A DNA stretch of 64,000 bases from Trichoplax sp. H2 (lineage: Eukaryota), in NCBI GenBank assembly GCA_003344405.1, contig NOWV01000110.1, positions 62,001-126,000 on the forward strand. Reading direction: 5' to 3'. Numbering within the stretch: the first letter of the stretch is position 1; each line of letters begins with the position of its first letter. The position numbers and the translations under genes were made by a program. A model generated the notes under the pieces. That model was not told the DNA's origin. It ran no database searches and saw only the letters and a list, made by a program, of their open reading frames with translations. Positions 1 through 43,400 of this stretch are shown piece after piece.

Positions 1-130
1 GATTATTCACGACTATCTGTATCTCTTACACGCTTCTCATAAGCTCAATAAAGATAATCTAAGCTCAACTATTATTGAATATGTCTATTGAAAGTCCCTC
101 ACTAACTACTGAAACTACATCACCACATAT

Positions 131-368
131 TGAAAGCACATTAAACCTTTAAATCGTTGCTTATGGTGATTTTGTTAGACACATTGCTTTCTTTAACAAC
201 TTTTTCCCAAATTTTCGTACCGTATTAACTGAATGATTTTCAAGTAACAGGCAAAATTTTCGAAAATCACTATTGTCACGCTTGTCTCGTAATATGCTTG
301 AAAGCTCCGCTGCTTTATCTTCTTTATGAATCATGTTTTTAATATCAGTAACCTCTCTGGAACTCAAA
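131..368. repeat. Near-identical copy of 552-789 (3' part of CARD exon), ending at an N-gap
   Basis: Direct repeat at offset 421 with about 2 substitutions; N-run at 369-388. Confidence 0.9.
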
Positions 369-388
369 NNNNNNNNNNNNNNNNNNNN
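369..388. other. Assembly gap (20 N)
   Basis: Run of N. Confidence 1.
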
Positions 389-581
389 TCTAAGGTTGTA
401 ACTGCAAGTTAATGTCAAAATACTTTAGATTGTGTGCACTTTGAGTGTTGCATGTTATTATATCATTTTTATACCTATATTTTAAATTATTTTTATATTT
501 ATATCAAAAAATATAATTGCTATGTTTTTAGTAATTTTATTGACTGTATACTGAAAGCGCATTAAACCTTTAAATCGTTGC

Positions 582-922
582 TTATGGTGATTTTGTTAGA
601 CACATTGCTTTCTTTAGCAACTTTTTCCCAAATTTTCGTACCGTATTAACTGAATGATTTTCAAGTAACAGGCAAAATTTTCGAAAATCACTATTGTCAC
701 GCTTGTCTCGTAATATGCTTGAAAGCTCCGCTGCTTTATCTTCTTTATGAATCATGTTTTTAATATCAGTAACCTCTCTGGAACTCAAAATACCCTTTGA
801 TTTTAACGGCTCTACTAATTCATCTACAGGAACTATCCGAATAAAGTCCTTGTTATATGTATCTAGGGCTTTTTTTACTTGTAATTTCGATATCGATTCA
901 CATTCCTCTTCTTCGGATGATC
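582..922 (-). CDS. CARD (death-fold) terminal exon
   Basis: VDELVEPLKSKGILSSREVTDIK...EDKAAELSSILRDKRDNSDFRKFCLLL fits the CARD helical pattern. Acceptor cgtag|GA at 923 is in phase 1 with the COR exon donor. Confidence 0.8.
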
Positions 923-3900
923 CTACGCAACATAACGCCAAAGTAATAAAGAATTAGTATTATTAATGCTATTATGATCGTAATTTAAGCTAGGATTAAA
1001 GTCATGATCGCGTTAAAATCTTTCAAATTCATTTTTGAGATTTCAATTACGTAAATTATTTCGTTTATAAACAGATAACAGAATTCAAATAATGTATCGC
1101 TATTAAGGGAAGTACCTTTAATTTGCGGTAATAGACAGTTGGAATTTAACACAAATTAGTAAATTGTCTATCAATACAAGTTTCAATGGCAGTTTGTCAC
1201 AAATGCATTAAACTTGAGGGATTAATCATAGTAGGTTTTCTTTTTTTGGAGGTCTAAATTTTTAGTCTGAGTAAATTGTTGGAGAATTTTAGACTAGATC
1301 ACTACAGAAAAATTTTTTCGCTGTATTGTAGGAAGAAAGGTCAACTATAGCCTAGTAGCCAATTAATATTTATTCTTATGTCAGAATTTCATAGATAAAC
1401 ATTGACATTGCAGGCTATAGCAATCGTGAGTTTTATTTTATAATGATTCAACCTCATTCAACCTTATGCATCAATGCATCAACTATGAAATTTAGAAAGC
1501 TGATGTTTGAATGAACGTCTACAGATTTATTCATAGTAATCCCTGCTTTATTCTCTTTTAAAATTGTCAAGAGCATATCAAGTAACTAATCATACGCTTA
1601 AATCGTTTAAAATTATTTCATTAGGAATTTTACAAGCATCAAGGCACACTGCTTGTTCTATTTTCCTAGTTGTATTTACGTTTGTGAAAGATTTCCAAAT
1701 TGTTTTCTGTACCGCATAATGCATGTGTAAATTAAGAACATTTAAGATCTAGTAGTCAGAGACTACTTGACTGATCAAAAAACTTTTATATTTATATTCT
1801 TCGTTACAAAGTACAGGAGTTTTCACCATAGAAGCAGTTAGAAAAGCTTATTCGTGTAATAGATGAAGCCTAACTGTAAATAAATTCAGCTACCTGTACA
1901 TTTCGGTATTACGGGCTTTTATAAAAATAATATTTTTTATTACTTTATAGGAATATTCCTCACCAGTTTCACTAGCTATTCTTTCATTTCCATTCATCAT
2001 CCAATCACATACCGCTTTCGATTTANNNNNNNNNNNNNNNNNNNNTTTTGCAATGGCTCGGCAGCTTTAAGAATGACGTGAAAATAAAAAAGTTTAATCG
2101 ACAGAACCTATGACTGACAATTCAATGTTTCTCCTTTTAATTTTAATGCCAAATTTTAACTGTAAATATCACTATTGTTCTTATCTCTCTTAACACTTTA
2201 AATCCAAAATGATAAAACTAAAGAAAAATTTCAGTTAGCTTTGTAAGAGTTTTAACAAAATTCTTATTGCGGAATACAGTAGATGTACCGTAATAAATGC
2301 AACTTTTGAAAATACTCGTATACAGTTTTAAGCACAAGTTAGCAAATTTATAAATATCAAAGGTATAAAAATATCGACATCTATAAAGTTTACTGTTAAC
2401 TCCCATATCTAGAAAGTATGTTCACTAAGATAATCTAGCATTGAATTTTCTTTTAATATATTGCCTTGTATGTTAGACTATGTACTATTCATCGTACTAC
2501 GTAAATGCTATGTATCTTAATTATGGTTGGTGTCATTTAGAACTGTTTGATCTCATTCCTAAGTTTAAATAATTATGTACAATTAACACAGTATAGTCAC
2601 AGTCCGATTTTGGATGTAAAAAACGGCACACTGCTTGTTCTATTTTCCTATTTGTATTTACGTTTGTGAAAGATTTCCAAGCTGTTTTCTGTACCGCATA
2701 ATGCATGTGTAAATTAAGAACATTTAAGATCTGGTAGTCAGAGACTACTTGACTTATCAAAAAATTTTCATATTTATATTCTTAATTACAAAGTACAGGA
2801 GTTTTCACCATAGTAGCAGTTAGAAAAGCTTATTCGTGTAATAGATGAAGCCTAACTGTAAATAAATTCAGCTACTTGTACATTTCGGTATTACGGGCTT
2901 TTATAAAAATAATATTTTTTATTACTTTATAGGAATATTCCTCACCAGTTTCACTAGCTATTCTTTCATTTCCATTCATCATCCAATCACATACCGCTTT
3001 CGATTTAAAAACCTTTCCACATTTCTCTTGGTCACATCGAATAAATTCTGGACTCAGCATCGATGGAATATCGACCATTTCTACTATTTCACTGCAATAA
3101 GAGCATTTGACGTAAAATCTACTTTTAGCTCTCTTAAATTTTGGCATTCGTTCATGAATAATCTGGTCCAATTGATCCTGGACTTCGAAGGGTAGTCGTG
3201 CTTCACTAATCCAATTAAAGATATTCTTCTTAATATGTTCTGCTGCGTCGGGCGGATCTTTCTGATAGCAATAGATTAAGCCAATGTAAGATTCTTCTTT
3301 CTTAAGAATAATCTGATATGGATATTTTGGCATGACGTATATTGCACATCGATAACTAGTTTTTACTTGTGTAACATTCCAAAGTTTTAAACAGGCTGAT
3401 AAATGGCAATAAAATATGCCATCAGGAATATAGGGTATAATATCTTTATTGTATCCAATGTAAAGCCAATCTGATGTACAGTAATCATTTAAATCTAGAT
3501 CATCAGTAAGTGGATCGAGTAAATAAGGTACAAAATATTTTTGAGGACATTTTTTAATATCCTGGCCACTAGATTCGTCCTCGATTTTACAGATAATGTT
3601 ATAACTGTCCATTAACTGTATTAAAAATTCTTTCTCAATCTCTTTCAACTCAAATTCGGTCGCCACGCTATTAATGCATACTTCAGACATTATGCCAGTT
3701 CGATGAGCTTGATTATAACATTCTATTACATTAGCATTAGTAAATTTGTGATCATCAAGCTTAATAATTGATCGAAATATACTGAGTAGCCAATCAAGAT
3801 TAGTTACAACCATTTCTTCTACGCCTTTCTTCTGACAAAAGACAATATCACCTATATCATGTAAATATAATAGCATACTGCGTAATTTCTTGTCGCTTTC

Positions 3901-6900
3901 ATATAATTCGCAATCTTTAGCTAATTGTTTCACCTCTTCAAATGTCATAATATTATGAATTCTATTTATTGTGTTACTGAATTCTGTTTGTGATGCAGCT
4001 AGTCTGCTTGCATCATCGGCTGAAGTATGTAATATCGATGCCATGAGATACCATCGAATTGGAATTTTTTCTTTCATAAACGGTAAACTAAGGGCGAATT
4101 GCTTTATTAACTCATGTAATTGTAATGTAGTCTGTTTACGCTGTTCAATAGCCGCTTGGGAATCATCGTTGGAATCATATTGGAAGATAATGCCAGAACA
4201 GCACAGGTTGGATTTGTATGCAGATAATGTCTGAATAATAGAATCCCTAAATGCCTTAAATCTACTCTCGCGTTCTTCATCGTCTTTAATTTTATCACCA
4301 TGCGATGCTATCAAGATAACAACTGGTAAACAATACTCTTCCTTTTTACCATTAATTTCTACTTCAATAGTCTCATCGCCATCATGGCTGCCTATGGTTG
4401 ATGTAAGCCATTCCTGCATAGCATGTCTATAAGTCATATTAGTCTTCTTTCCTTGCCTGTCAATAACATAATCGTCGAATTTATGGGTAATATTAAAAAC
4501 TAAAATATATATACTGTTTCCTGATAGAAATGGACGATGTGTAACATGATAAACAGCTTGACCTCCAAAATCGACTAATTTACCATATTGACTGTCATCG
4601 CTTTGTACCTTGCCTTTTAAATCAGTAACAGATCGCATGAAATCTTCGTAAATTAAAATTTTGTGAAACTTTGTCTTTGTAGATACCGTAGATAAAGCAG
4701 TGTCGGTAAAATGATCTACGTTTATTGCACTATTAGTTCTGACGTTATTTGACAATGTACTTATATTCGTCGTCAGTAATTGACGATCTATGTGCATAAG
4801 TTGGATATTTTGACTTGCGTCAGGTGAAATTTTCAACGTCTTTTTGAATTTCTCTATTACCGCTAACACTTTCCCATATAATACTAATCGTAAACTATCA
4901 ATTTTCTTGTCCAAAATATTATATGTAATGAAATTGATATATCTGCCAGTGTTATCCATGATCTGAGTTTGTGTTATGCCAATAGTGACTTCCTCATTTG
5001 TAAAGATGTTCATAATGGTCGTTTTACCCACATTTTCTGGACCGCTAAAAACAATTTTAGTGAAATCATTGCGACATTCCCCATCTTGTAGAGCTTCATT
5101 ATAAGCAGCTAGATATTCTTTATTATTGACGTCTAAATGAACATGAATTAAACTTATTTACTTCATCTAAGGATAGCTGTTAATGTATATTAACACGTTG
5201 CCAATTTCTATAACAGGTAAATATATATACTCTACAATTGAAACTAAAGTTTGACTTTATAGGAAAATTAATTATTATAAGAATAAATCTATGCAATAAG
5301 AAATATAAATTTTGATATTTGTCAAAGTAACTCTGACATGGATTATTCATCAAGATTGATTGTCGTATCATCAATTTTTAGCAACATAAAGTAGCTATTT
5401 GAAGTATTCACAGTTTAAGTAGCGTTATTCTTGGGAACATATAAAATTAGTGCAATTACGAAGGCATAAATGAGATCGACAATTTCATCGCAATACTTGA
5501 GATAAAAATGAGAATAATAATCAGTAATAATAGTTGATAGACAAGCATAAATATTTCTTTACCTTCGGAAGGTAGAGAACTTTCGTTTCTTCTATCTATA
5601 TTTGGGGCGTTGAAGCTACCTTGTATTTAGCAATTAATGAGCCAATACAACATACAACAATTTAGACTTTTATCCACGAATTATAATTAACTAAAACAAC
5701 AAAATTACCTTGGAAAATTTTCATAGCATAATTCGATAATAATGGGTCAGATTGAGCTTCTAGTAACAAATCGTTAAGAGTCTTTACGATTTTATTTTGT
5801 TTTTGATGACATAGCGTTGCTCTTAATACTATCAAATGATCTTGTGACGGATTTTTCTTTTGCCAAAGACGTAGCATCTTATTAGCTAAAGCCGATCTAT
5901 TACTTCCACGATGATCTAGTTGTTGAATACTTGTATATTGAATATCGTCATCACAAATATTTAAATTTCTTGCTAGCTGCATCCATTCATCTCCAATTTC
6001 ATTTGCAATAATGGAAAAGCACTTTTCTACAGTGCAATGTAAAGTACCATAAGGTTAAATGTGGCTGTTTTAGGGATGTTTATTACTCAAAGACCGCGTT
6101 TCCATTAATCATTATTTAATTTTCATACTTTATTGGCTATAATGATTGTTTCATAAGAGTAATGACTATACAATAAATTTGAATCATTCTTCTATACGTA
6201 AACGTTAATTATATCAACAAGGAAAGTTTCCTCCTTATAACTAACCATTGAAATCATCGATAGCCGCTTCTTCTTTATTTCTAGACTGGTTGATAGATTT
6301 ATCTTCAGGTTTTTCGCTATGTTGGCCAAGCTCTACAGTAGAATCTACAGCAACATCAGTGTTAAAAACAATTTTTGTTGAAAGTAATGATTTCAAGTAA
6401 CGAAATATCTGTATTTTTATTTTATCTTTATAGACTCGAGCATTTTAATAACGACTACCGTAATTTATTTAAAATAATTTCATCGAACTATATCTACTCT
6501 AACATACTGTTCGCGTATGAATTGAAATGAACTTCCATTTACATGTATATTATTTTAAAATTTATTTTCTATCGGAGCTGACATTGAAATTTGAAGCTTA
6601 TTTTAGTGACAATTATCGGAGAATAAATAGAACTATCTAGTTACACATCTAATATAATAGTAATGATTTTTTCAGAAATTGCTTAACCTTTGAGAAGTAA
6701 TTTTTATGAAGCGTTCTTGTTACTGTTTACTGATTGATAGCAAGTACCAGTAAAGAACAATTAAGTTATAGTTATCGAAAATAGCATAATATGAAGCTGT
6801 AGTGCAGCCCCAAATATAGCTTGGATTGTGATTGAAAGACTGTACGAGAATAGTATTACTCGTAGGTTAGATTGTGTGATTTTGAAGATATCTATTTGTA

Positions 6901-9900
6901 GAAGAGGTTCACAATACGTGTTGTCTAGATATTATTGAGATGTTTATGTTAAGATTTCATGATAATAATAGAGGTAGCACTAATTATATTAGTACTGTGA
7001 GAGTTGCATTGTGATGCTTTAATTAGACATGTGAATGATAAATAGCTCGCGCGATGGTAAACTGTTATCTTGCGACTTAATTGGTAAGATATGAATTTAA
7101 TGTGTAAAATTCATTCTGTAACAAAGGGTATATAAATCACGAGCTTTCGCTGTAATTCATATAGTCCTATTGTAGCTAGGTAGTTCTTGGTAGTTGTGAG
7201 ACGAACCTAATCTATGTAATAATGTAAATTTACTAGAAACCGAAATTTGTTTTATTAATAAGATTATTTTATCACAGCAACAAAAAATTGAAAGATCTTG
7301 TTTATAGATCAAAATATTGATCACACCAGATTGCAATATTTACGATATTGAAACACGATGCAGTTTTCTTTACTGGCGATAAGTAACATTTTTTACAAAT
7401 TCTTTGTCACAAATGTGCATGTTATTGTCGAAACAAATCATGAGAATGTGAGGTTGATAGATCAAGAATCTTCAAAACTTTAGAAAATTAAGATTTATTG
7501 AACAAAACCTCCTTTACTAAGATACAGCGTAATCGATTAGCTGAGGACCTCTAACGAGAAAGAACTAACTTAATATAATAAACTACTCGCTTATATACCT
7601 TTCCGCATTTACAGTCTTAGCACCTTACTTACTACACACTTCGGTATTAGCATCTCAAATACAGGCTAGTTTACACCTTTCATGTGAAGCTCTAGTGTGA
7701 ACACTGTAGCGCTCCTCTTCAAAAGGATTACAGCTACTAAGCTAGCTATACTTATTACTTAAGCTTCTAACGAGTATATCTATCACATGTTGAACACAAC
7801 ACCTACGGTAGACATTACTAAATATATCATCAACTTAGAATACAATATTACACTGTCTTACAGAGAAATAGAACTGTACTAGAAAGTAAAAGTTAGAGGA
7901 TAGATATTTCTCACGTTAAATTATCATTTTTTGTCATGATGATTTATACAATGTAGATTATAAACGATATTGTGAATATAAGCATAATGTACGGTTAACT
8001 ATACAGGTATCTAGCTTTGTGCAGTAACTAGCTACAAAAGTTCGGTGTTGTGATATTTTCAATCAAGGGCTGCTAATTATGTTGATAGTTTTTAATAAAT
8101 ATTTGTGTTATAAATTATTACCTGAGAATAAAAACTATTATAATATAGTTTTAATTTATTATTATATAAGGATATTGCGATATAATTTTGTTACGTCTCA
8201 GTGATATCTTATTTCATGTACTACTGCCCTATCTATGTAATGCAAAATACGGCGCATACGGTGCCTTATCAAGATATACTCTCACTAAAGTCGAATCCTT
8301 GACAAATATTATATTAAATGAGTATGTTTGGAATTCAAAATCGGCTTGTCTTTGAAATATACATGTTTAATTTATCTTTAACTAATAATGGTAATAACAA
8401 GACGTTCTTTGTTGTAGTAGATGGGCTGATATCCATCTCAAGTATGGTGATAATATACTATCTTCAGGCATAAATGGTAGTCTTCTTACAGTGCTAATAA
8501 CTTTCATACGATCATAACCTTTAACAATACATACTACCGTATGTATTGTTAAAAAATGCATCATTAAGTAAATTGTGGATTTGTTGTTGGTTAAATAAAA
8601 TGTCTGTGGCTTTATTACTAGTCAATGATGATATAGTTTAGTTTTAAAAGAATTATTTGAAGTTGAAAGTTTAGAATCGGACTTTGCATCAATAAATATA
8701 TGAGTGGTCTGTTAGTTAGACTAAGATCATTTAGAAGTCTTTCTTTTCAAACGTAGTCGCCATTGCCGCAAGAATATTATCGCCTATATGTCACACACCA
8801 CTAGTGACAAAGTAGTCTACACACGCCAATCCTTGCGGAGAACGCCACTTACTAACTTAAAGAGGCGAGATTAGCTATATCACCAACTAATTCAGTTCCA
8901 ACAACCGAATACTATGGTATAATTATAGCGTCACAGATGATGTAGACGAGATAGTCAGAGATTTACTATCATTTATTACTGAAGGAATCTTGGCACCCAA
9001 GATTATAGTCTTCACAATTAAATATCAATTGAAAACTAGTTGACTATCTAACCGACTAACGAACTAAAAAGGAATCTTCAGGCATCAGCCTTTTATAGTC
9101 TCGTCAGAAACTCCTGGTAACTATAGCTTAGCTTAAGATCATAAAATTGTACGCCAATAGATTAACTTGTAGATTTTAACACTGTGTAAGTGACTATTTG
9201 CCGAAGATTGTACTAGTAGCACTACGTAGAATGGCAATTGATATGTTAGTTGAATTTTGATTCATGCTGGGAACTCGCGGTTAAGAAATGAGTATTGACA
9301 GAATATTATCTTGTTGGCGACTTGATAAAAGAATAGTTTGATCTACTGTACAGTGTTACGCTAACTTACCTTTGCTTTGCTGGCCGCTATTATTGTATAT
9401 TCCGTCTGCAATTTTTTGCCCAGCTTTATTTTCTATTGGCAAAAAAATCGCGATGAGAATACATTGAATAGATAAAAAATTAGTATCGTAACTTTCCAAG
9501 ATAGAAATCACCTTGTAATGCAGGATTAGTAACCACTGGTTGATAGACTGCATCTTGCTGTAAAGAATGATGAATCATTTTGGATGTTGGTTGCGTTGCA
9601 GCGATTGGTCCGTTTTCTTGTAGTCTATCGAAACATTGATTAATTTGTTCTTTAAGTTGGATGATTTGAGCATCATCTTTTCCATAAAGATTGTCTAGAT
9701 TTTCAATGGACTTTTCATAGTACTTAATTGCGTTATGATAGTTAGACTGTCGGTAATAAACCTCGGCTATAACTCCATAGACTTTAGCTGTACAAGGATG
9801 GCTTTGATCAAGTGTTGCTAAGTGGATTTGCAATGCCTTGTTCAATATAGATAAAGCATCATAATACTTGCCTTGATGAGCATAAGTGAGTCCAATGCTG

Positions 9901-11090
9901 AGATACGTTACGGCAACCAGAAGATGATTGGGACCAAGTTGTGCTTTTTCAATGTTCAGCGATTTTTTGAACATAAATAGAGCATAATCATACTTGCCTA
10001 GATTAGAATATACTTGTCCAATGCGACTATATGTTCCGGCAACATCACAATGATTGTCACCAAGCGGTGCTAGTTTAATTTTCAGCGATTTGTTATTCAT
10101 AGATAGAGCATCATCATGTTTGCCTTGATTAGAATAGACTTGTCCAATGCTTTTATAGGTTGCGGCAACGCCAGGATGATTATCATCAAGATATGCTAGT
10201 TTAATTTTCAGCGACTTGTTATACATAGATAGAGCATCATTGTACTTGCGTTGCTTATAATAAACTAGTCCAATATTGTGATATGTCACGGCAACGTCAG
10301 GATGATTGTCACCAAGTTGTACTCGTTTAATCTTAAGCGATTTATTATACATAGATAGAGCCTCATCATAGTTGCATTGATTAAAATAGACTAGTCCAAT
10401 GTTGTTATATGTTGCAGCAACATCACAATGATTGTCTACACGTTGTGCTAGTTGAATCTCCAACGACTTGTGATACATAGATAGAGCATTATCATAGATG
10501 CCTTGATTAGAATAGACTTGTCCAATGTTATAATATGTTACAGCAATGTCGGAATGACAGTCACCAAGTTTTGCCAGTTTAATTTTCAGCGACTTGTCAT
10601 ACATAGATAGAGCATCATCATACTTCCCTTGATAATAATAGACTTGTCCAATATATTCATAGGAGATGCTAGCACTAATATCTCCGCTTTCTAATGAATT
10701 CAATCTTATTTCAAGTGATTTATTATAATCACTTAAAGCCCCTTTCAAATTACCTAGCAATTGCTTAATGCGTCCCTCGACGTGGAAGCACATACAAATC
10801 TTTACTTCATCTCGTAATTTTTTAGCCAATTCCTCTGCTTTTCTAACCCATTTATCAGCTTCCATTAATTCACCTATTTTTAAATAACAATCAGTCATAA
10901 CGTAATAAGTATCGTATTCAAGTTGATAAATATCATCACTACTACTGGATGTCGATTTCATATAGGTTAAAGCTTGTTCACAATGATGCAATGCTCCTTG
11001 ATAGTCGCCTTCATTTTGGTTTTTCACGCCCTTTTCCAAAATTGATTTTATTTGCTCAAGATTAGTCGATTTGCTAGACTTTTCTGCCAT
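582..11090 (-). CDS. Predicted multi-exon TPR-Death-Roc-COR-CARD (ROCO family) protein, ~1539 aa; exons 11090-9512, 9432-9370, 6344-6246, 6026-5709, 5595-5563, 5132-2946, 922-582
   Basis: Every junction is GT-AG and phase 1. Internal exon lengths (63, 99, 318, 33, 2187 nt) are multiples of 3, and the total of 4620 nt is open to the TAA at 582-584. The joins from 6344 down to 582 are well supported. The TPR-to-Death join crosses a 3-kb intron and is less certain. Confidence 0.65.
1643..2025. repeat. Near-identical copy of 2625-3007 (end of COR exon plus intron), ending at an N-gap
   Basis: Direct repeat at offset 982 with roughly ten substitutions; N-run at 2026-2045. Confidence 0.9.
2026..2045. 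other. Assembly gap (20 N)
   Basis: Run of N. Confidence 1.
2946..5132 (-). CDS. Roc GTPase + COR domain exon (729 codons)
   Basis: G1 GPENVGKT (5020-5043), G2 TIGI, G3 DFGGQ followed by YHVTHRPFLS (4558-4572), G4 variant SHGD (4294-4305). COR hallmarks include IPIRW, LLYLHDIGDIVF, V..NLDWL and YFVPYLL. Confidence 0.92.
5709..6026 (-). CDS. Death-domain exon
   Basis: Translates as KCFSIIANEIGDEWMQLARNLNICDDDIQ...ANKMLRLWQKKNP...VLRATL, matching the death-domain pattern (G-x-x-W-x-x-LAR-x-L ... ML-x-x-W). Bounded by acceptor tag| at 6027 and donor |gtaat at 5708. Confidence 0.88.
6798..7276 (+). mobile_element. Possible degenerate solo LTR
   Basis: TGTAGT...ATCACA termini and an internal TATATAAA near 7130. 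The first ~57 bp recur at 29282-29340. The TSD is not clean (gaagc/gcaac). Confidence 0.4.
7447..7862 (-). mobile_element. Solo LTR-like element (416 bp)
   Basis: Termini TGTGAG...CTTACA flanked by a perfect 5-bp duplication GAGAA. Minus-strand TATATAAG (7590-7597) is followed by AATAAA (7494-7499). Its end resembles the reverse complement of the end of the 22961-23512 element. Confidence 0.7.
8789..9300 (-). mobile_element. Possible degenerate solo LTR
   Basis: TGTCA...TGACA inverted termini. Minus-strand TATAAAAG (~9090-9097) is followed by AATAAA (~8972-8977). Shares the motif gc(c/t)ttttatagtctcg with the 11786-12402 element. TSD poor. Confidence 0.35.
9512..11090 (-). CDS. TPR-repeat exon: about 3 divergent TPRs, then about 8 kinesin-light-chain-type 42-aa TPRs
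   Basis: ORF 9480-11090. The motif catagatagagc recurs every 126 nt at 10602, 10476, 10350, 10224, 10098, 9972 and 9846. Consensus DDALSMYNKSLKIKLAxLGDNHxDVAxTYxNIGxVYxNQGKY. Donor CAAG|gtgatt at 9512/9511. Confidence 0.92.
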
Positions 11091-11785
11091 ATTTGAGATT
11101 TAGTATAACAGTATGCAAGAAGTATGCCGCTTAGATAAAAGACCAAGACTCTCTTCTGAATTGACTAAGACCTTAATAGCTATACAAAGAAAGAATGCAG
11201 TTGATGTATGTCTATATCTAAATTAGACGTCTTCCACTTTATGTCAAGATATTGAAGTTTGCTTTATAATAAACTCAATAGATTAAATAGAGTCGCCGTA
11301 ATCAGCTAACGATCAACAACCATGCGTACAGTAAATTATTCTCTTAATATTAATAGGCATCAAATTGATTACGCTCCTTACGTATGATTGTCTTTCTATC
11401 AACACTTTTTAAACGTTAGTAATCTACGTCATGTAAAGATACAATTGTAAGCTCACTTATTAGCATATCATTGGCATAAAATCAGTCAATCGGTCGCATT
11501 TTATAAATGTAAAATTATTTTGAACATAAATAAAACATGACCATCACAACAGTACTATACCTATTCATGTCGATATTGCATATATCATAGCCAATAAATT
11601 GTACTACAGGTAAATATCATTTAGCTCAGTTCAACTCAAATTACTTTCGGTGCCTTCCACTAATGATCATCCTCATCTTACAAAGATATCAATCATCAAC
11701 ATTCTCTCGGTCAATTTTAAATCAAATTTATATTGGTATCCAACAATCCAATTTATGATTTAATGCAAAGAATTTAATTACCATA

Positions 11786-17076: not shown

Positions 17077-20000
17077 ATGAAGATGGTTGCGATGTACCTT
17101 ACTATGTGCCTTTTAGCAAAGGTGGTGCATGGTACTTCCATATCCATTGATAGTAATCAGTTTGATGCAAGCAGTGAGTTTCCCGGTGATAGCGCAGTTT
17201 CTGGTGATAATTCTTATCAAGCTCTACAATCATCTATACTTGCCGGTAAATAATGCTCGTTCTATTCATTTCTAACGAAATAAAGCTAGGCTAGGATAAA
17301 AGGATAACAATTTACTCTAGCCTCGTAGCTACTATAACGCATTTTAAAATTAATACCGCTACTTTATCATGTTCTACAGATAGTTCAGGGGATCTACCTT
17401 ACTCAGTGGAAATATCTTCTCAACAACTACTATCGGAGGACAACAACTACATCACTGTAAGCGATGAAGTGTTTTCTATTGATAGCCAGTCCGACAGTGC
17501 TCCATTCCCCTCACTATCGGATGCTCTAATGGATGATTCTTCTGCTTACTTTCCAATGACTTCCGCTGAGGTTATGTCGGAACCTCTCCAAAGTCAAATT
17601 GGACAATCGCTCGATTTTTCAAATAATTATATTAGTAGCAATGCAACTGCTATGTTAACGTTGGATTCTACGAAAATGTTTATTTCAACAAATTCAAGCG
17701 ACGCTTTACAGCCAACTATTTATGTCAGCGCTAATATCTCTGCATCAATGGTTTCCAGCTATAGCAAATCGCCATCCAGTAATCTATCGGTTGTCTTTGC
17801 ATCTTCAGTTGCTCAGTCCAGTATCGAAGGCAATCCTTCCTCCGAATTGAGCACTACTAAAATTTCGCCGTCATCTGGGTTTCTTAGCCAGCTTAGTGCT
17901 ACTAATATTCCTGTATCAACTGCAATAACAACACCGTCGTCAAGTGTCATCTTAACCAATCTATCGTTGCCTATATCAACTGCAATAACAACACCGTCGT
18001 CAAGTACCAACTTAACCGATCTATCGTTCTCTATTTCTACTTCTAATCAGCCAATATTAAGTCAGGATACCCAAATCAGTACCAGCGTAATGGATCAATC
18101 CAGTCTACTATTGAGCAAGGATATTGCCTCCTCTTCTGATTCTTCGTCTTTCTATTCTCAAGACATGTCTTTATCATCCTCACCTGTAGCCATGTCTAAT
18201 ATGCAGAGTTCAACGAGTTTAGTAGAAATGTCGGTTTCTAGCTCTTCCAAGGTTGATATTCCACGATCATCCTTCGTTTCCAGTAATTTATATCTAAAGA
18301 GTTCTAGCATCAAGAACGATCTATCTATTCTTCCCTCGAAACAGAGTAGTCTCTCGGTCTCAACTTCATCCAGTGTTACCCTAGATTTGTTCTTTTCCAG
18401 TGATTTATCCTTGTCCAATAACTTAATTACAAGCACACAAAATAATACTGGCGACATGATTACGAATTCAATCAGTAATCCAGCAACTACAAACTCACCT
18501 GTGACTACGCCAACTCCAACCGTGAATCCTTGCCTGAATAATCCATGCCAACCTTTTGCTGTCTGCAATGCACTATCAACATTAACGATCGGATACTTTT
18601 GCACCTGCAGAGTGGGCTATTATCAGCAAGATGTAAACGCCCTTTTAACAAATAGCCAAGGGTGCTTAGGTACGTTTATTATATAATTAAACAGCCTATG
18701 TAAAGCAGTTTAATATGCATTTTCTAGCAAGCTTCGTATGTAAAATAATACATACCGCCATTCTACGGTTAAAATTTCTTGTTTTACACCATAGTTAGCC
18801 ATAACAGTAGATAGCTAGTAAGCATTAAATAATTAGGCAAATTGATCTTGTCTTGCATACAAGCAGATACAAAATGATTTTAGAGATTAGGTTAATACAT
18901 TGATAATATGATCACTTAATTAGCTGTAATCCCCCTATTTAGAGGGTAGCTATTTTACTGGTACTCTATCTCTAGACGATGTATTTGAGCCTACATTAAA
19001 TGATCCTAACAATCAAAAAGGACAACGAATAAAGAATGATAGCAAAACACAGGTAATCTAACTAGGTTGCAGCTTGACTAATTTTTGTTTTATATAAGCA
19101 ATTTACATGGACGAGATTTCCATGATTTTGTTTACACTGATGGTTATTTCTAGATCGAAGCCGCGATACGAAACTCCCCAGATGCAGCTACCAATTTTCT
19201 ATATATCATCATCACCGGCCTGAGGTATTAAGATTTTGCTTAAGTCTCTAGCGGCACTTTATTATTTAAGCACTAGGTATGAGAGCGTTGTCAATTAATC
19301 TTTTGCTACTAAGGTGATATTCATTTTAGAAATAAGAATGATAATTTAACAACCATAGTTAACTTCGTCAAACGCTTATCTTGATATACACGTATTAAGT
19401 ATAACCTGAATTATACCATCTTGCTAAGACTACTGCCTAATTTTAGTATTGGTTAAGTGCACGTACAGATTTCACATCAGATATTTATAGTGAAAACTAT
19501 TAATTCATTTACTATTCTTTGTCTAATTCTAGGTCTGGGAGTATTATTGTCGATTTCTATGCTGTTTATGATAATAATGCCACAGTAAATCAAACTGCAA
19601 TTCAAGACACTATCCAACAAAATGTTCAAACGGTGGGCAGCATAGTAGTTCAGGGAGTTAACGTGACGGGTAAGACCATCTGAAAATCTATTTAACCTTT
19701 AGAATACACTTTCAAAACTTTTATGTGTAGATTTGAGTAATCTTGACAAAATAGATGATCTTAGCGTCTCTAGTTACTAAAAGTTCTTTCCGTAATAACT
19801 ATCCTGCTTTTGATGCATTTCAATTTATTGCAGTATAAATGATCATGAATACAAACGAAAGCAAACATTATTCAGTCCAAGTAAAATAGTCACAAATTTT
19901 AGTTCGTTTTCTTGATTTGCATTTGATGACAAAAATACATTCGGAAATTAGAAATTAACGATAGCTTCGTTTTTCTTCAGACTAATTAATACTCTTATTA

Positions 20001-24798: not shown

Positions 24799-25422
24799 TT
24801 ATAGACATGAACATCGAACTGGAACAACTAGTGATAATATCAATTTTTTATCCGCTGAGGGCCAGCTCTTATCTGCGACATTATATTCAAATTCGATTCG
24901 CTGTTTTTGATTTGCTTCTTCACATTTTGCAACCACTTCAGGAGAACAGCCTGCATATTTACAATTTACATAGGAATATTGAAATGGTTGGCCAAACACT
25001 AGATCGGATGATACCTTTGGAGCCTTGAACAATTTTACTGTTTGACTAATATTGCATGATGAATTTAAGTTATCTTTTCTTAGCGATTTTTTATCTATTG
25101 CAGAAGTATGCTTGTAATCTTTCGTATTGTCGTTTTTTTTCAATGGATACCCATTCAAAAATCTTTCCTTCTCTACACTCTCATCGTGTATAAAAGGTCG
25201 AGGGCTACCATAGGGTAAGGCGATTAAAATAATCATCATTACTGGGATTGTCAACAATTTTGCAATAATGGAGTGCACCTATATTTTTGAAGATCAAACA
25301 GGTCAAATAGTATATAACTTACTATTACAATAAAGTGAGGTTAATATCTATTAGAGCAAGCTAAGCTGGTTAAATAATTAAGCTATTGGAAAAAACTATG
25401 TATTTCCAATTATTCTCACCAT
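24799..25422 (-). CDS. Secreted cystine-knot protein A (signal - pro - knot), 160 aa; exons 25422-25420 (ATG only) and 25278-24799
   Basis: aaaATG|gtgaga donor and tatag|GTG acceptor. Hydrophobic signal IIAKLLTIPVMMIILIALPYG and basic KK/RK sites precede six Cys spaced C-x30-C-x4-C-x7-C-x36-C-x-C. Confidence 0.85.
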
Positions 25423-30354: not shown

Positions 30355-31164
30355 TTACGGTTCTACTATCAATTTAAATTTTACTTCCTGTTGTATACAT
30401 GCACAATGGATTGGTACATATAATGAAAACACTGCTTTCTTATCCACTGAGGGCCAACTGTCATCTAAAACATCGTATTCAAACTCAATTCGCTGCTTCA
30501 TATTCGCTTTTTCACATTTTTCAATCATTTTAGGTGAACAGCCTGCATAATCACAGCTTGTATAGGCATATTGAGAAGGCCCACGAAGCGTAAAGTTGGA
30601 TAATACTTGTGGAGGTATGAATGCTTGTAGTTTCTCAGCGACAAAGCAAGTGAAACCAAAGTTGTCTGTTTCTAGCGATTTTTTAATCTTTGTGGATGTA
30701 TGCTTCAAACCTTTGGTGTTATCGATTTCTTTCACTGAATGCGAACCCAATTTTGTTTCCTTGCACATTGCATCTTCGGATTGAGAAGATCGTGCACTAC
30801 CATAGGGTAAGGCGATTAAAAGAATCATCATTACTGGGATTATCAACAATTTTGAAATGGTGGAGCGTACCTATATTTTCAAAGACAAAGCAAAATCAGT
30901 TAATGTTTCTCATGCATTCCATTGACGTAAGTTAGCAATGAATTAAGCTAAATAAAGAATTGAGACTAATTATTTAAATTTTAAATGTTATAAACTCTTA
31001 AATGAAATGGTTAGTAATAAACTTACTATGTATGACAATAATACCAACAATTACTACCATTATTATTACAAGAAACTAAGACTAATATCTATTCGAGCTA
31101 GCTAAGCAGGTTAAGAATTTAAATTAAGAACAAAAAACAGTACATTCTAAATTATTCTCACCAT
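30355..31164 (-). CDS. Secreted cystine-knot protein B (paralog of A), 172 aa; exons 31164-31162 (ATG only) and 30870-30355
   Basis: Same ATG|gtgaga first exon and identical Cys spacing. Shared motifs CxYAGCSP, KQRIEFEY, SWPS.DKK and VP..C.C. One extra Cys in the pro-region. Confidence 0.85.
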
Positions 31165-40405: not shown

Positions 40406-43400
40406 ATGAAAGTTGCAGCTTTATTAAAATTAGGCTACGTAAGTTTAAAATTTGTCTACTCTGATCAATCTATTTATCTTTATATTATTTTTTCCTAATG
40501 TATTTCTCTAAAATTGTACTTAGATATTAATATTGTACCTAAGAATTGTGGTAGATGGCCATTCAATTTCCTTTAATAGTGAAGAAATCAATTTCCTTAG
40601 TCAATTTGTACATACGGAAAGCACCGATGTAGATGAAGTTTCCTACCCATCCTTGCAATCCAGTGCAACTGCAGGTATAACTGGGCATAACAGAAAATCA
40701 AAATTAACTTTAGAGAATTTATTGATGAATTACTCAATGCTTAAGATTATTAGCTATAAGTTTGATCACTAATCTGTAAGAATTGAACTTTCGTTTAACC
40801 TGTGTGTTGCCTGGATCACGTAGGATTGCAAATTACTGAATCGAGTTTTGATAAACCAACAACAATTACGGAATATTTAACACTGCTAGACGATGGATCT
40901 CACATTTTCTCAGGATCAAGTAGCTCCTTTGGTGATCTCACATCAGTTACTGCATTTTCTACACTAACTTCATCAGAAATTAAAGGTGATGTTTTAGGAC
41001 GCTTTCAAGCTTCTTCACTTGTTATAAAAACAAGTCTAATAGCTAGCATAGCTAAATATATATAGGCCGTAACATATACATCTTTATTCCGCTTTATCAA
41101 GCTGTATTAGTTTTACTAATCAAAAGTGTCGATATCATTCCTCCACAACAACGAATAATCTTGTTACTTTTACTATATTTTCAGATGTTCTTGCTGAAAC
41201 TAGCAAAGCCAGCTCCAGCGAGGCCTCCTTAGAATGGATGGGATTTTCTTCTTCTAATGGGAGTATCATATCAGCGAGCCGTATTTATACTCTTAATAAT
41301 CAACAGGAATCTTTACAAAGTTTAGATACAGAGGATCGTCAAACAACGGTTACTTCCGTGTTAACCATGTCTATCTTATTAGAAGACGACAGTAAAGCTT
41401 CCAGAAGTCAAGATAAATTATCACTGACTACTGCTACAGAAAATTCTTTCGTTATTTCGTCTTTTGATTCTAGTTCGTCCGATATTATAACATCAGCTAT
41501 TAGTAACCTACATGAAGAAAACTCTTTAGATACGATGAAAGGCGAGAATTTAATATTATCTGTAATATCTACTCTAACTACAACTTTGGTTGATATGGTA
41601 AGAGAAAGTAGCAATACTGTGAATGTTAAAGATTCCTTATTGACTACAATAACTAAACGTGATTTCCTGTCTTCCACCTTGGATAATGCAGTCAAAGAAT
41701 CGACTGCAAGCATGTCCAATGACGATATCATAACTTATCAGGATAAAAATTCGTTTATTACCTTTCTAGTTGACACTTCATCAACTTTAAGCGAAATGCC
41801 TACGCTCTTACTTCTAGAGAATAGCAATAGTTTAAACCGTGTAGATGATTCTATCCATTCGAGTGATGAATTCTCATCTACAGTCTCTTTGCCGTTAACG
41901 GAGGAAGCTTCTACAAAATCCGTTACGACTACCATCATTCCAAATGATCAAGGCGAAAAGCCATTAATTTTGCCCACAGACATTTTGTCATCGTTAAAAT
42001 TCGACCATACCATATCGACGAGAAGTTTAAATACCCCGGATCAAAATGACTCGTTATCGAGTTTGCATCCAGAAAATCTTTACATGATAACCACAATTAC
42101 TACAAGCGTAATCACATCTTTTATATTGAAAGAAAACAGCATGATTTCCAGTGATCAAAATACTTTTTCAGTCATTACCGCTACCGAAATTGTTTTAATG
42201 AATTCATCTCTGGCTATTAGTGCATCAAATGTCGCGATATCCAACAGTGATACCGTCAATGAAGACGAAAGTTCTTCAAATAAGATAGATACAGACAATT
42301 TGGCATCAACCATAACATCCAGTCTGACTACAACTTTAGTTAACATCGTAAAGGAAAGCAGTGGGACTGAAGATATTGAAGACAATTTATTATTGACTAC
42401 GATAACTAAATCTGATTTTCTATCTTCTTCTTTGGACAATTTGGTACGAGATTCTGTAATAAGCATAACCAAAATTCAAACCTTCAGTATTCAAGATAAA
42501 AGTTTATACAGTAATTATCTATTAGTCATGACATCAACTTCAACTTTCATTTCTTCAACTGCAGCTACTGATGACCGGTACAGTCTAAACTATCTAAACC
42601 ATTTCACGGATTCCATTGGTGAGTTTTCGTCTTCAATACCTGCAAAATCAACAGAAAACCTTAATACCTTAGGTGATCAAAAGGAATCTTTGCCGAGTTT
42701 TGACACAGAAAATCTTTCCATTGGAACCACAGTTACTTCGATATTAACCACCTCTTTCATAGAAGCAGAAGCTAGTATGGTATCCAGTAGTCAGAATGAT
42801 TTTTCAATTGCTACCACTACCGAAAACTCGTTTCAGAGTTCACCTTTACCCTCGAATATTACAAATATCGTCATATCCAGTAGCAGTATCCTAAATGAAG
42901 AAGAAAATTCTTCAAGTAGGATAGATACAGACAACTTGGCAACTACCATAACCTCAGATTTAACCACAACTTTAGTTATAACAGTAAAGGAAAGTAGCAG
43001 TACTACTGATGTTGAAGATAATTCATTATTGACTAGCATTACCAAATCTGATTTCCTATTTTCTTCAGTGGATCATTCAGTGAAAGATTTTGTTATAAGC
43101 AAGACCAATATCTATACCTTCAGTATTCAAGATAAAAGTTTTACTTCAATTTTAACCAATTCTTTAATAGAAAAAGAAACAAGTTTAGCTTTAAATAGTC
43201 AGCACGACTTTTCGATCGCTTCTACAATTGACAACTCATTCCATAGTCCATCTTTACATTCGGAAATATCCCATGCTGTCATATCAAGTAGCGGTATCCT
43301 AAATGAAGGAGAAAATTCTAAAATTACGCTACATACAAACAATTTGACATCTTATATCACATTTGATTTGACCACTACTACTTTGGTTGATATAATTAAA

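What the first reader, a model, noticed from the sequence alone, without database searches (positions are those of the whole stretch)
582..11090. Hidden single gene: TPR sensor - Death domain - Roc/COR GTPase - CARD, an NLR-like receptor built on a ROCO switch
Seen: four ORFs that look unrelated in the ORF track (TPR, Death, Roc-COR, CARD) join through three small exons not called as separate ORFs (63, 99, 33 nt). All six introns are GT-AG and phase 1, giving one open ~1539-aa frame. The COR-CARD link also holds within a single contig (COR exon end at 1964-2025, intron 923-1963, CARD 582-922). Established: Roc-COR is a dimerising GTPase switch (LRRK2, DAPK1, MFHAS1), and Death/CARD domains nucleate caspase and NF-kB signalosomes. 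Placozoans are reported to have expanded ROCO families, so the family itself may not be new. Inference: this is the sensor-switch-effector logic of an NLR or Apaf-1, with Roc-COR replacing NACHT/NB-ARC, no kinase, and two different death folds flanking the switch. That makes it a candidate intracellular immune or cell-death receptor that automatic annotation would probably split.
Basis: partly seen in the sequence, partly recalled or inferred. Interest (0 to 1): 0.82.

Follow-up and report, generated by a model that had tools for sequence, protein, structure and literature searches.

The report
Placozoan TPR-Death-Roc-COR-CARD gene, already annotated
The four open reading frames do join into one spliced placozoan gene for a large GTPase flanked by two cell-death adaptor domains, but the gene is already in GenBank as a single model and its family was described in 2014, so it is a correct reading rather than a discovery.

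Summary
All introns are GT-AG and phase 1, and the frame is open. It is letter-for-letter identical to GenBank RDD40155.1 ("Nephrocystin-3", Trichoplax sp. H2, 1547 aa), except that GenBank's fifth exon is 57 nt, not 33. Contigs of two public runs skip the introns, including the critical TPR-to-Death link 9370>6344 (one contig, one run) and COR-to-CARD.

Domains:
- TPR: clear Pfam match.
- Death, Roc and COR-A: pass Pfam thresholds.
- CARD: fails Pfam's threshold, but an MSA-based AlphaFold model (pLDDT 86.8) matches CED-3/CED-4, Apaf-1 and caspase-9 CARDs at Z 13-14, against 7.7 or less for Death and Pyrin domains.

The gene is therefore not hidden. It belongs to a placozoan expansion of ROCO GTPases (Roc-COR family) whose TPR, death and CARD flanks were published by Civiero et al. 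2014 (PMC4104024).

It is not an NLR, because it has no NACHT or NB-ARC domain. Its layout is closest to DAPK1 without the kinase. A role as a GTP-gated death-fold scaffold is plausible but untested.

Family-specific extras are a roughly 100-residue insert in Roc and an invariant four-cysteine module after COR. Interest is low to moderate.

The parts
9512..11090 (-). Exon 1: start codon at 11090-11088 and the TPR array. The first in-frame ATG lies 3 codons after a stop.
   Evidence: ORF. Pfam TPR_12 E 1.4e-82 with 7 stretches, and TPR_NPHP3 158.8 bits (cutoff 100). X1 contig record 7 covers 11297-9512 with 0 differences and continues into exons 2-4.
9847..10652 (-). Regular part of the TPR array: 6.4 tandem copies of a 126-nt (42-aa) unit.
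   Evidence: Tandem Repeats Finder: period 126, 79% matches, no indels.
9370..9432 (-). Exon 2 (63 nt), linker.
   Evidence: AG|..|GTAAGT borders. Joints 9512>9432 and 9370>6344 in one X1 contig. Present in P0001.
6246..6344 (-). Exon 3 (99 nt), linker.
   Evidence: Borders. Joints 9370>6344 (skips 3025, side 63) and 6246>6026 (side 29) in X1. Present in P0001.
5709..6026 (-). Exon 4 (318 nt, phase 1-1): Death domain.
   Evidence: Pfam Death 35.3 bits on the ORF and 30.5 on P0001, cutoff 22.6. In-box Death profile hits P0001 residues 578-666 at 1.9e-19.
5563..5619 (-). Exon 5 (57 nt in the GenBank model). RNA-like contigs of other strains give 5622-5563 (60 nt).
Evidence: Joints 5709>5622 and 5563>5132 in X1 and X13.
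2946..5132 (-). Exon 6 (2187 nt): Roc GTPase, COR and the four-cysteine module.
   Evidence: Pfam Roc 32.4 bits (cutoff 27) and COR-A 41.4 bits (cutoff 35.3). Weak sequence matches to four solved chains across the switch II and COR-A regions: 4wnr ('Leucine-rich-repeat protein'), 3dpu, 6hlu and 8r4b ('Rab family protein'), E 0.0036-0.059. 638 library relatives.
5020..5043 (-). Roc G1 / P-loop, motif GPENVGKT.
   Evidence: Position 30 of the 728-aa exon translation. Family variants keep GxxxxGK[ST] in most members that cover it.
4558..4572 (-). Roc G3 / switch II, motif DFGGQ. It lies 157 residues after G1, so a long variable insert sits between them.
   Evidence: Aligned to the DFGGQ of chains 4wnr and 3dpu. 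The insert is variable among paralogues.
4294..4308 (-). Roc G4-like motif ASHGD.
   Evidence: 21 of 59 family members have it identical and most of the rest have [AG][ST][HYN]xD. Assigning it to G4 is my inference.
3019..3105 (-). Conserved CxxC...CxxxxC module at the end of COR, possibly a zinc ribbon.
   Evidence: Cysteine present in 49 of 49, 49 of 49, 47 of 48 and 45 of 48 family members that cover each column. Metal binding is inferred, not shown.
582..922 (-). Exon 7: CARD (about 884-609) and stop codon (584-582).
   Evidence: Pfam CARD 22.0 bits, below the 23.9 cutoff. Paralogue P0013 scores 23.9. AlphaFold with an 8-row alignment gives pLDDT 86.8. Foldseek best hit is Apaf-1 CARD, TM 0.85-0.87, rmsd 1.5. 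VIA-align Z 14.0-13.2 to CED-4/CED-3, Apaf-1 and caspase-9 CARDs. Joint 1964>922 in X1 and X13.
1643..2045 (.). Assembly redundancy: a second copy of the end of exon 6 plus the start of the intron (1643-2025, matching 2625-3007), followed by a 20-N gap (2026-2045).
   Evidence: The spliced contigs use 1964>922, skipping 1041 nt.
127..388 (.). Assembly redundancy: a second copy of the CARD exon's 3' part and the 3' flank (127-368, matching 548-789 at 98.8%), followed by a 20-N gap (369-388).

Best explanation
This is one expressed, spliced gene of a placozoan. Its sequence is identical to Trichoplax sp. H2 protein RDD40155.1 (1547 aa).

It encodes a ROCO-family GTPase with this order of parts:
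- a kinesin-light-chain/NPHP3-type TPR array;
- a Death domain;
- a Roc domain with intact G1 and G3 motifs and a long insert between them;
- COR;
- a conserved four-cysteine module;
- a C-terminal CARD whose fold is closest to the Apaf-1, CED-4 and CED-3 CARDs.

It is one member of a placozoan expansion in which the same Roc-COR core carries TPRs at the N-terminus and either a Death domain or a CARD at the C-terminus.

Shown here: the gene structure, splicing, the domain identities and the family.

Inferred: as in other ROCO proteins, the Roc-COR tandem acts as a nucleotide-dependent dimer switch. Its state would control whether the Death domain and the CARD are free for homotypic assembly with other death-fold proteins. 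Candidates named in PMC6321704 are the placozoan CARD-caspases and the many Apaf-1 paralogues. The output would then be caspase activation or a related signalosome. The TPR array would be the partner-binding or autoinhibitory part.

In layout the protein is a kinase-less relative of DAPK1 (repeats - Roc - COR - death fold). In logic it is an analogue of an NLR or Apaf-1, but not a member of that family.
For: Gene model: an open 1539/1547-aa frame with GT-AG, phase-1 introns, identical to P0001. There are six intron-skipping joints in X1, three of them also in X13, and none in the DNA-like run X6.

Domains: TPR, Death, Roc and COR-A all score above Pfam cutoffs.

CARD: the model has pLDDT 86.8 and pTM 0.78. 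In the VIA-align search the first 37 rows are CARDs apart from one de novo designed protein (rank 7) and one entry titled 'unknow protein 4' (rank 26); Z runs from 14.0 down to 7.7. The first Death or Pyrin entries come at Z 7.7 or below. Foldseek's best match is Apaf-1 CARD at rmsd 1.5 over 92 columns. ESM Atlas nearest clusters are CARD, score 0.92.

GTPase motifs: GPENVGKT, DFGGQ and ASHGD are present, and DFGGQ aligns to the same motif in solved Roco chains.

Family: 46 cluster representatives at E <= 1e-30. Twelve of them were looked up: six carry names, all Trichoplax, and six come from unnamed short ENA contigs. In my census of the 59 held proteins with E < 1e-30, 9 are TPR-RocCOR-DD, 5 are TPR-RocCOR-CARD-like plus 1 with two CARD-like domains, and 3 carry an internal DD.

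Among 104 weaker relatives, 18 are RocCOR-DD and 5 are RocCOR-DD-DD. A death fold directly after COR is therefore widespread.

Literature: PMC4104024 (passages and figure legends read) lists the placozoan ROCO family with CARD, death and TPR domains and describes a model in which Roc-COR is a nucleotide-dependent dimerisation device. PMC6321704 (passages read) reports CARD-caspases and about twelve Apaf-1 homologues in this species.
Against: Nothing functional was tested. GTP binding, dimerisation, CARD or Death-domain partners and any ligand for the TPRs all remain inference.

The TPR-to-Death link rests on one contig in one run, plus the GenBank model, whose evidence base I did not see. No listed run is on record as RNA.

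The CARD misses Pfam's threshold by sequence (22.0 against 23.9 bits). Its assignment rests on a predicted structure built from an 8-row alignment.

The G4 motif is not the canonical NKxD. Some paralogues have degenerate G1 or G3 motifs, so the family tolerates loss of GTPase motifs.

The domain order is the reverse of Apaf-1 and the NLRs.

PMC4104024 itself speculates about chemotaxis and phagocytosis rather than cell death.
Confidence: 0.55

Rival explanations
1. The gene is as described, but it is not a receptor. It would be a DAPK1- or LRRK-like housekeeping regulator of stress-induced death, autophagy, or cytoskeletal and vesicle traffic. The TPRs would be a kinesin-light-chain-type cargo or scaffold module, and the death folds would serve only as constitutive oligomerisation or adaptor pieces.
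For: The TPRs match kinesin light chain (E about 1e-20 to 1e-21) and GPSM2/LGN (about 1e-15 to 1e-16) best among natural proteins in solved structures; engineered consensus TPR proteins score higher. Roc-COR followed by a Death domain is the DAPK1 layout (recalled) and is common among distant relatives: 18 RocCOR-DD of 104. PMC4104024 links ROCO expansions to chemotaxis and phagocytosis.
Against: There is a lineage-specific expansion into dozens of paralogues with swapped Death/CARD ends and a regular, recently duplicated TPR array. That pattern is more typical of immune or conflict gene families than of housekeeping genes (general knowledge, not tested here). No kinase or motor-binding feature was found.
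Confidence: 0.25
2. There are two transcription units. The TPR ORF and the Death-Roc-COR-CARD part are mostly expressed separately, and the joined mRNA is a minor read-through isoform that the annotation pipeline fused.
For: Only one contig, in one run, bridges 9370>6344. The intron is 3 kb long and holds segments of very high contig depth (7381-9220). Split and fused models both occur in this family's annotations.
Against: Exons 2 and 3 have no other use and are in phase. At least 26 of the 59 family proteins carry TPR and Roc-COR in one chain, from two independently annotated genomes. The closest paralogues, P0003 and P0004, have the same TPR-DD-Roc order. Contig depths cannot be compared between parts of a gene (tool note).
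Confidence: 0.07
3. It is a redundant, decaying paralogue with no function of its own, and the apparent intactness is only recent.
For: The family is large and includes members with degenerate GTPase motifs and many fragmentary models: 29 of 59 are RocCOR-only. The locus sits in a poorly assembled stretch with two gaps.
Against: There are 1547 codons without a stop and all splice sites are intact. Spliced contigs occur in two runs labelled as different organisms. The G1 and G3 motifs and all four cysteines are intact. The CARD folds confidently.
Confidence: 0.05

Closest known systems
Placozoan ROCO family (Civiero et al. 2014, PMC4104024; GenBank models named 'Nephrocystin-3' in Trichoplax sp. 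H2)
   Same: It shares the same Roc-COR core (37-63% identity to P0002-P0008), N-terminal TPRs, and Death or CARD ends. The window's protein is itself one of these GenBank models.
   Different: Nothing in kind. Among the 59 family proteins I could score, it is the only one with both an internal Death domain and a C-terminal CARD.
DAPK1 (death-associated protein kinase 1)
   Same: It has repeats N-terminal of Roc, a Roc-COR tandem, and a death-fold domain directly after COR. The DAPK1 layout is recalled; Pfam names the Roc model after DAP kinase.
   Different: No kinase, calmodulin-binding or ankyrin hits. It has TPRs instead of ankyrin repeats, a CARD instead of a Death domain at the C-terminus, an extra internal Death domain, and the four-cysteine module.
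Apaf-1 / CED-4 / NLRs (STAND NTPases with death folds)
   Same: The CARD fold is closest to the Apaf-1, CED-4, CED-3 and caspase-9 CARDs. It has the same three-part logic of repeat array, nucleotide switch and death-fold output. Placozoan NLRs also use TPR or WD40 repeats with CARD or death-like ends (PMC6321704).
   Different: The switch is a Roc GTPase, not a NACHT or NB-ARC ATPase (no such hit). The order is reversed, with repeats at the N-terminus and the CARD at the C-terminus. ROCO proteins are thought to work as dimers rather than as wheels (literature view, not tested here).
LRRK2 and prokaryotic Roco proteins (solved chains 3dpu, 6hlu, 8r4b, 4wnr)
   Same: It shares the Roc-COR tandem. 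Switch II reads DFGGQ followed by the same hydrophobic strand as in the solved chains.
   Different: Sequence similarity is weak (E 0.004-0.06). It has no LRR, kinase or WD40. There is a roughly 100-residue insert between G1 and G3, and a cysteine module after COR.
Invertebrate Roc-COR proteins fused to immune adaptor domains: actiniarian NG1 and NG3 (PMC5094078) and Aplysia ROCO-containing TLR/MyD88-like proteins (PMC9334734)
   Same: Roc-COR is combined with TIR or Death domains, and the authors propose these as novel immune genes (passages read).
   Different: The partners differ (LRR, TIR, kinase, MBT, EF-hand). No TPR-Death-Roc-COR-CARD arrangement is described in the passages I read.
Nephrocystin-3 (the name given in GenBank)
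   Same: The TPR array matches Pfam TPR_NPHP3 at 151.5 bits, cutoff 100.
   Different: The similarity is confined to the TPRs. The Death, Roc, COR and CARD parts make the name misleading. NPHP3's own architecture is recalled, not tested.

Membership tests
ROCO GTPases | A Roc (Ras of complex proteins) GTPase domain. | tested here: met
   Pfam PF08477 scores 32.4 bits on the exon and 28.1 on P0001, cutoff 27.
ROCO GTPases | A COR domain directly C-terminal of Roc. | tested here: met
   Pfam PF16095 COR-A scores 41.4 and 40.4 bits, cutoff 35.3. It follows Roc in the same exon.
ROCO GTPases | Guanine-nucleotide motifs G1 (GxxxxGK[ST]), G3 (DxxG) and G4 ([NT]KxD or a Roc variant). | tested here: inconclusive
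   G1 (GPENVGKT) and G3 (DFGGQ) are present. G4 is ASHGD rather than NKxD. I recall that Roc domains such as LRRK2's use a TH.D-type variant, but I did not test that.
ROCO GTPases | GTP binding/hydrolysis and COR-mediated dimerisation. | not testable with these tools
Two copies of Roc-COR (1456 residues) exceed the complex tool's 1000-residue limit.
Death-fold superfamily, Death domain subfamily | Sequence match to the Death domain model. | tested here: met
   Pfam PF00531 scores 35.3 and 30.5 bits, cutoff 22.6.
Death-fold superfamily, CARD subfamily | Sequence match to the CARD model. | tested here: not met
   Pfam PF00619 scores 22.0 bits on the exon and 17.2 on P0001, cutoff 23.9. The 72%-identical paralogue P0013 scores exactly 23.9.
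Death-fold superfamily, CARD subfamily | A six-helix bundle that superposes on solved CARDs better than on Death, Pyrin or DED domains. | tested here: met
   The model has pLDDT 86.8, with helix 1 split into two pieces. CARD entries score Z 14.0-7.7, and the first Death or Pyrin entries score 7.7 or less. Against Apaf-1 CARD, TM is 0.85-0.87 and rmsd 1.5. This is a predicted model, not an experimental structure.
NLR / Apaf-1 (STAND NTPases) | A central NACHT or NB-ARC NTPase domain. | tested here: not met
   P0001 has no NACHT or NB-ARC hit at E <= 0.01. The same scan finds NB-ARC at 60.7 bits in paralogue P0005, so the method can see it.
DAPK1 family | An N-terminal Ser/Thr kinase with a calmodulin-regulated segment and ankyrin repeats. 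| tested here: not met
   P0001 has no kinase or ankyrin hit at E <= 0.01 among the 25 listed families.
DAPK1 family | Roc-COR followed by a C-terminal death-fold domain. | tested here: met
   The CARD starts about 14 residues after the end of the Roc-COR match. Paralogues carry a Death domain at the same place.

The most novel reading that the evidence does not exclude
Placozoans may run a second class of intracellular death or immune signalosome receptors, built on a GTPase. In it, a Roc-COR dimer switch would stand where the STAND ATPase of NLRs and Apaf-1 stands. The switch would carry a family-specific switch-I insert and a zinc-ribbon-like module. Its outputs (Death domain, CARD, or both) would have been swapped between paralogues by shuffling of phase-1 exons. 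The window's gene is the only scored member with a Death domain before the switch and a CARD after it. It could therefore bridge Death-domain and CARD pathways in a single molecule.
Probability: 0.2. Interest if true: 0.7.

Novelty: already known. Interest (0 to 1): 0.28.

Why it matters
As a discovery it matters little. The gene model is already public, and the family with its TPR, death and CARD flanks has been in print since 2014.

As biology it is still an untested idea with some reach. If Roc-COR can gate death-fold assembly, then the NLR/Apaf-1 logic evolved at least twice on unrelated nucleotide switches. Placozoans lack LRR-type NLRs, RIG-I-like receptors and cGAS-STING (PMC6321704). 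They would then have an unrecognised arm of intracellular defence or cell-suicide control.

The published placozoan immune survey screened only NACHT and NB-ARC for such receptors, so it did not consider this family.

A kinase-free Roc-COR with simple outputs could also be a convenient model for how LRRK2- and DAPK1-type switches pass on a signal.

Tried and rejected
- No RNA holder listed. All runs are 'RNA? (a guess)' and are kept as contigs. I therefore use only the joints, not depth or uncovered parts. X2 and X13 leave many bins uncovered, and that means nothing.
- The depth figures of the TPR contig (9.9) and the Roc contig (185) in X1 were not interpreted. The tool says contig depths cannot rank parts of a gene.
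- An X1 loose end at 6027 (29 letters unlike the window) was left unexplained. It may be a diverged allele or paralogue.
- No whole genome is held. There is therefore no DNA-level paralogue count, no check for the T. adhaerens orthologue, and no test of whether P0005 is a fused model.
- The CARD by sequence gave nothing. The PDB phmmer search had no relevant hit. A region search of long proteins found only the protein itself. A near-length search found one paralogue, P0013.
- The single-sequence AlphaFold model was poor (pLDDT 63.2) and its Foldseek search found nothing meaningful. It was superseded by the alignment-based model.
- A PDB search with alignment A2 was swamped by TPR hits and said nothing about the CARD.
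- The weak Pfam hit nSTAND_NTPase4 (21.4 and 16.4 bits, cutoff 27) overlaps the first CARD helices. I rejected it as sub-threshold.
- AATAAA lies 41 nt after the stop (541-536), but the motif is not commoner than chance in this AT-rich window, so it is not used as evidence.
- The big intron (6345-9369) holds no Rfam family, no internal direct or inverted repeats and no second copy in the window. Its high-depth segments remain unexplained.
- The two eLife papers on prokaryotic and metazoan death-like domains (PMC8195603, PMC7159879) mention ROCO only in their reference lists in my term searches.
- The search of earlier findings returned nothing for this genome.
- Complex prediction was not used. 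No partner sequence was in hand, and two copies of Roc-COR exceed its size limit.

Full report
**What is in the sequence**

The minus strand of window 582-11099 holds four long stop-to-stop ORFs: 9480-11099, 5662-6054, 2872-5157 and 582-953. Pfam calls them as follows:
- TPR_12, E 1.4e-82.
- Death, 35.3 bits against a cutoff of 22.6.
- Roc, 32.4 bits against 27, together with COR-A, 41.4 bits against 35.3.
- CARD, 22.0 bits, which is weaker than the 23.9 cutoff.

The stretch is AT-rich, with GC 0.27-0.36. It contains two 20-N scaffold gaps, at 369-388 and 2026-2045.

I joined 11090-9512, 9432-9370, 6344-6246, 6026-5709, 5595-5563, 5132-2946 and 922-582. The result is 4620 nt and 1539 codons with no internal stop. 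Every intron is GT..AG and phase 1. The start ATG is the first one after an in-frame stop three codons upstream.

**Independent check 1: a database protein**

I searched the protein collection with the Roc-COR ORF, restricted to longer proteins. It returned P0001, GenBank RDD40155.1, named "Nephrocystin-3 [Trichoplax sp. H2]", 1547 aa. P0001 is identical to the joined model at all 1539 positions and has 8 extra residues at the start of exon 5. GenBank therefore uses the acceptor three codon-multiples upstream (5619), which gives a 57-nt exon.

So the window comes from this placozoan or a sequence-identical strain, and the public annotation already holds the whole gene as one model, CARD included.

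**Independent check 2: sequencing data**

No run is on record as RNA, and all runs are kept as assembled contigs. I laid four runs on 389-11400.

Contigs of X1 carry all six intron-skipping joints:
- 9512>9432.
- 9370>6344 (skips 3025 nt, 63 letters on the shorter side).
- 6246>6026.
- 5709>5622.
- 5563>5132.
- 1964>922.

X13 carries a different organism label and shows three of these joints. One 1977-nt X1 contig runs without a mismatch from 11297 through exons 1, 2 and 3 and 29 nt into exon 4. X6 has the same organism label as X1 and has contig depth in all 30 bins, but it has none of these joints. The joined forms therefore behave like spliced RNA.

The support for that particular joint is one contig in one run.

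For exon 5 the contigs give 60 nt (5622-5563). In the window that acceptor would read AC. I infer a strain difference in a tandem acceptor.

**Assembly redundancy**

The flanks of both gaps are duplicated. 127-368 matches 548-789 at 98.8%, and 1643-2025 matches 2625-3007 at 97.1%. The spliced contigs use 1964>922, so the last intron is 1041 nt.

**Is the last domain a CARD?**

By sequence the case is marginal:
- 22.0 and 17.2 bits against a cutoff of 23.9.
- No hit to solved CARD sequences.
- A 72%-identical 118-aa paralogue, P0013, scores exactly 23.9.
- ESM Atlas puts the domain next to CARD clusters, score 0.92, with 20 of 30 hits.

A single-sequence AlphaFold model was poor and matched nothing.

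An in-box phmmer search of the 164 proteins then in hand found the same C-terminal domain in seven further family proteins: P0019 and P0161 (identical in length and hit coordinates), P0049, P0052, P0057, P0058 and P0164. I aligned the query with seven sequences, P0013 plus six of those. With that 8-row alignment the model reached pLDDT 86.8 and pTM 0.78, with helix 1 split in two.

Foldseek's best matches are Apaf-1 CARD entries (TM 0.85-0.87, rmsd 1.5 Å over 92 columns, probability 1.00). The E-values are only 0.03, as expected for a 90-residue bundle.

The Foldseek-independent search gives these scores:
- Z 14.0 to the CED-4/CED-3 holoenzyme.
- Z 13.4 to the Apaf-1/caspase-9 CARD disk.
- Z 13.3 to the Apaf-1/caspase-9 CARD complex.
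- Z 13.2 to Apaf-1.

The first 37 rows are CARDs apart from one de novo designed protein and one entry titled 'unknow protein 4'. Death and Pyrin domains begin at Z 7.7. The tool warns that helical bundles can reach Z 13-14 by chance arrangement. The clean separation of one subfamily from its sister subfamilies is what persuades me. I accept the domain as a CARD, on a predicted structure.

**The GTPase core**

In the 728-aa exon translation, G1 is GPENVGKT (position 30), G3 is DFGGQ (position 187) and a G4-like ASHGD lies at position 275. The DFGGQ strand aligns to the same motif in solved Roco chains, with weak E-values of 0.004-0.06.

G1 and G3 are 157 residues apart. I recall roughly 45-50 for canonical Ras and Roc domains. 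The extra segment is variable and of low complexity among paralogues.

After COR comes a CxxC...CxxxxC module. Cysteine is present in 49 of 49, 49 of 49, 47 of 48 and 45 of 48 family members that cover each column. A zinc ribbon is my guess, and I did not find it mentioned in the passages I read.

Some paralogues have degenerate G1 or G3 motifs. This gene does not.

**The family**

A full HMMER scan of 1.84 billion cluster representatives found 638 relatives at E <= 1e-3, 176 at <= 1e-10 and 46 at <= 1e-30.

I looked up twenty of these proteins by exact sequence:
- Every named one with E < 1e-33 is from Trichoplax adhaerens or Trichoplax sp. H2.
- Six are from unnamed short ENA contigs.
- The best named outsiders are sea urchin and amphioxus proteins, at about 1e-21.

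For a census I used home-made Death and CARD-like profiles and a TPR query. Among the 59 held proteins with E < 1e-30:

| Architecture | Count |
|---|---|
| RocCOR only (mostly fragments) | 29 |
| TPR-RocCOR-DD | 9 |
| TPR-RocCOR | 8 |
| TPR-RocCOR-CARD-like | 5 |
| RocCOR-CARD-like | 2 |
| TPR-DD-RocCOR-CARD-like (this gene) | 1 |
| TPR-DD-RocCOR-DD | 1 |
| TPR-DD-RocCOR | 1 |
| DD-RocCOR | 1 |
| RocCOR-DD | 1 |
| TPR-RocCOR with two CARD-like domains | 1 |

The set contains a few H1/H2 orthologue pairs, and my profiles do not score other domain types.

Among 104 weaker relatives, 18 are RocCOR-DD and 5 are RocCOR-DD-DD. A death fold right after COR is therefore an old and common arrangement. 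The CARD end and the internal Death domain are placozoan variations.

The Death domain sits on its own phase 1-1 exon, and the CARD exon also starts in phase 1. That is what exon shuffling would need. This is an inference from the general rule, not a test.

**What is in print**

- Civiero et al. 2014 (PMC4104024; passages and figure legends read) report at least 17 ROCO genes in T. adhaerens, with Roc-COR surrounded by CARD and death domains, TPR and LRR repeats and AAA ATPase domains. The figure itself is not held, so I could not see whether the orthologue of this gene is drawn.
- A 2024 brown-alga paper repeats this and treats algal ROCOs as candidate immune receptors (PMC11378527, passages).
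- Kamm et al. 2019 (PMC6321704, passages) surveyed Trichoplax sp. H2 immunity. They defined NLRs by NACHT or NB-ARC only, and found 42 such genes with TPR or WD40 repeats and CARD or death-like ends, about twelve Apaf-1 homologues and two CARD-caspases. The terms 'GTPase' and 'Nephrocystin' do not occur in its main text. Its supplementary gene lists were not available to me.
- Sea-anemone and Aplysia surveys have flagged Roc-COR fused to TIR or Death domains as novel immune genes (PMC5094078 and PMC9334734, passages).
- My searches found no paper that tests any placozoan ROCO.

**How it most likely works**

Shown: one gene, spliced, with the parts TPR, Death, Roc, COR, cysteine module and CARD.

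Inferred: Roc-COR is a nucleotide-dependent dimer switch, as proposed for the ROCO family (PMC4104024). The switch would set whether the Death domain and the CARD can engage in homotypic assemblies. The CARD, whose fold is closest to the apoptosome CARDs, would recruit a CARD-caspase or an Apaf-1-like protein. The TPRs would bind a partner or hold the protein closed.

This is DAPK1 without its kinase in layout. It resembles an NLR or Apaf-1 only in logic. It fails the defining NLR test because it has no NACHT or NB-ARC, and its domain order is reversed.

I put about 0.9 on the gene model and domain calls, about 0.5 on a death-fold scaffolding role gated by the GTPase, and about 0.2-0.3 on a true sensor or receptor role.

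**Verdict**

The novelty claim (hidden, likely split) is wrong for this gene, although it is true of at least one paralogue in the older T. adhaerens annotation. The GenBank name is misleading, because it rests on the TPRs alone.

The gene and its family are already known. What remains open, and moderately interesting, is whether a GTPase-based analogue of the apoptosome or NLR principle operates in placozoans.

Noticed in passing
window 41073-53915 (+) and 17295-18686 (+): There is a 4280-codon stop-free frame made of serine/threonine-rich repeats of roughly 190 residues. It ends in a short cysteine-rich segment, and a similar segment ends the 463-codon frame at 17295-18686. Neither the last 299 residues of the long frame nor the shorter ORF has a Pfam hit. 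Both look like giant mucin-like secreted or surface proteins.
   Followed up: partly
window 59516-61045 (-): A single-exon carboxylesterase ORF (Pfam COesterase, E 2e-109).
   Followed up: partly
window 24799-25278 (-) and 30355-30870 (-): Two paralogous ORFs of about 160-170 codons, each with a hydrophobic N-terminus and conserved cysteines. Neither has a Pfam hit. They may be small secreted proteins.
   Followed up: partly
window 7381-8116 and 8485-9220 (inside the 3-kb intron): Segments with very high summed contig depth in three runs, up to about 32,800 in X6. They have no Rfam family, no internal repeats and no second copy in the window. They are probably a dispersed repeat or transposon fragment.
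   Followed up: partly
protein P0005 (TRIADDRAFT_62071, not in the window): A T. adhaerens gene model that combines Death, NB-ARC, the APAF-1 helical domain and this family's Roc-COR (44% identity) in one 1343-aa chain. It is either a real STAND-plus-ROCO double switch or two neighbouring genes fused by the annotation.
   Followed up: no
window 3019-3105 (-) and family alignment: An invariant four-cysteine CxxC...CxxC-type module lies at the C-terminal end of COR across the placozoan family. It may be a zinc ribbon. It was not mentioned in the ROCO passages I read.
   Followed up: partly
window 3762-5132 versus 9512-11297, run X1: The X1 contig over the TPR exon is identical to the window (0 differences in 1786 nt). 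The X1 contig over the Roc exon differs at 29 of 1371 positions. This mosaic of identical and roughly 2% diverged segments may reflect allelic haplotypes or admixture between strains.
   Followed up: no
window 2046-2624: The first 579 nt after the second gap have no counterpart in the neighbouring contig, although the next 383 nt do. Contigs of X2 and X6 diverge from the window at 2621. This is probably a haplotype-specific insertion or a misjoin inside the last intron.
   Followed up: no
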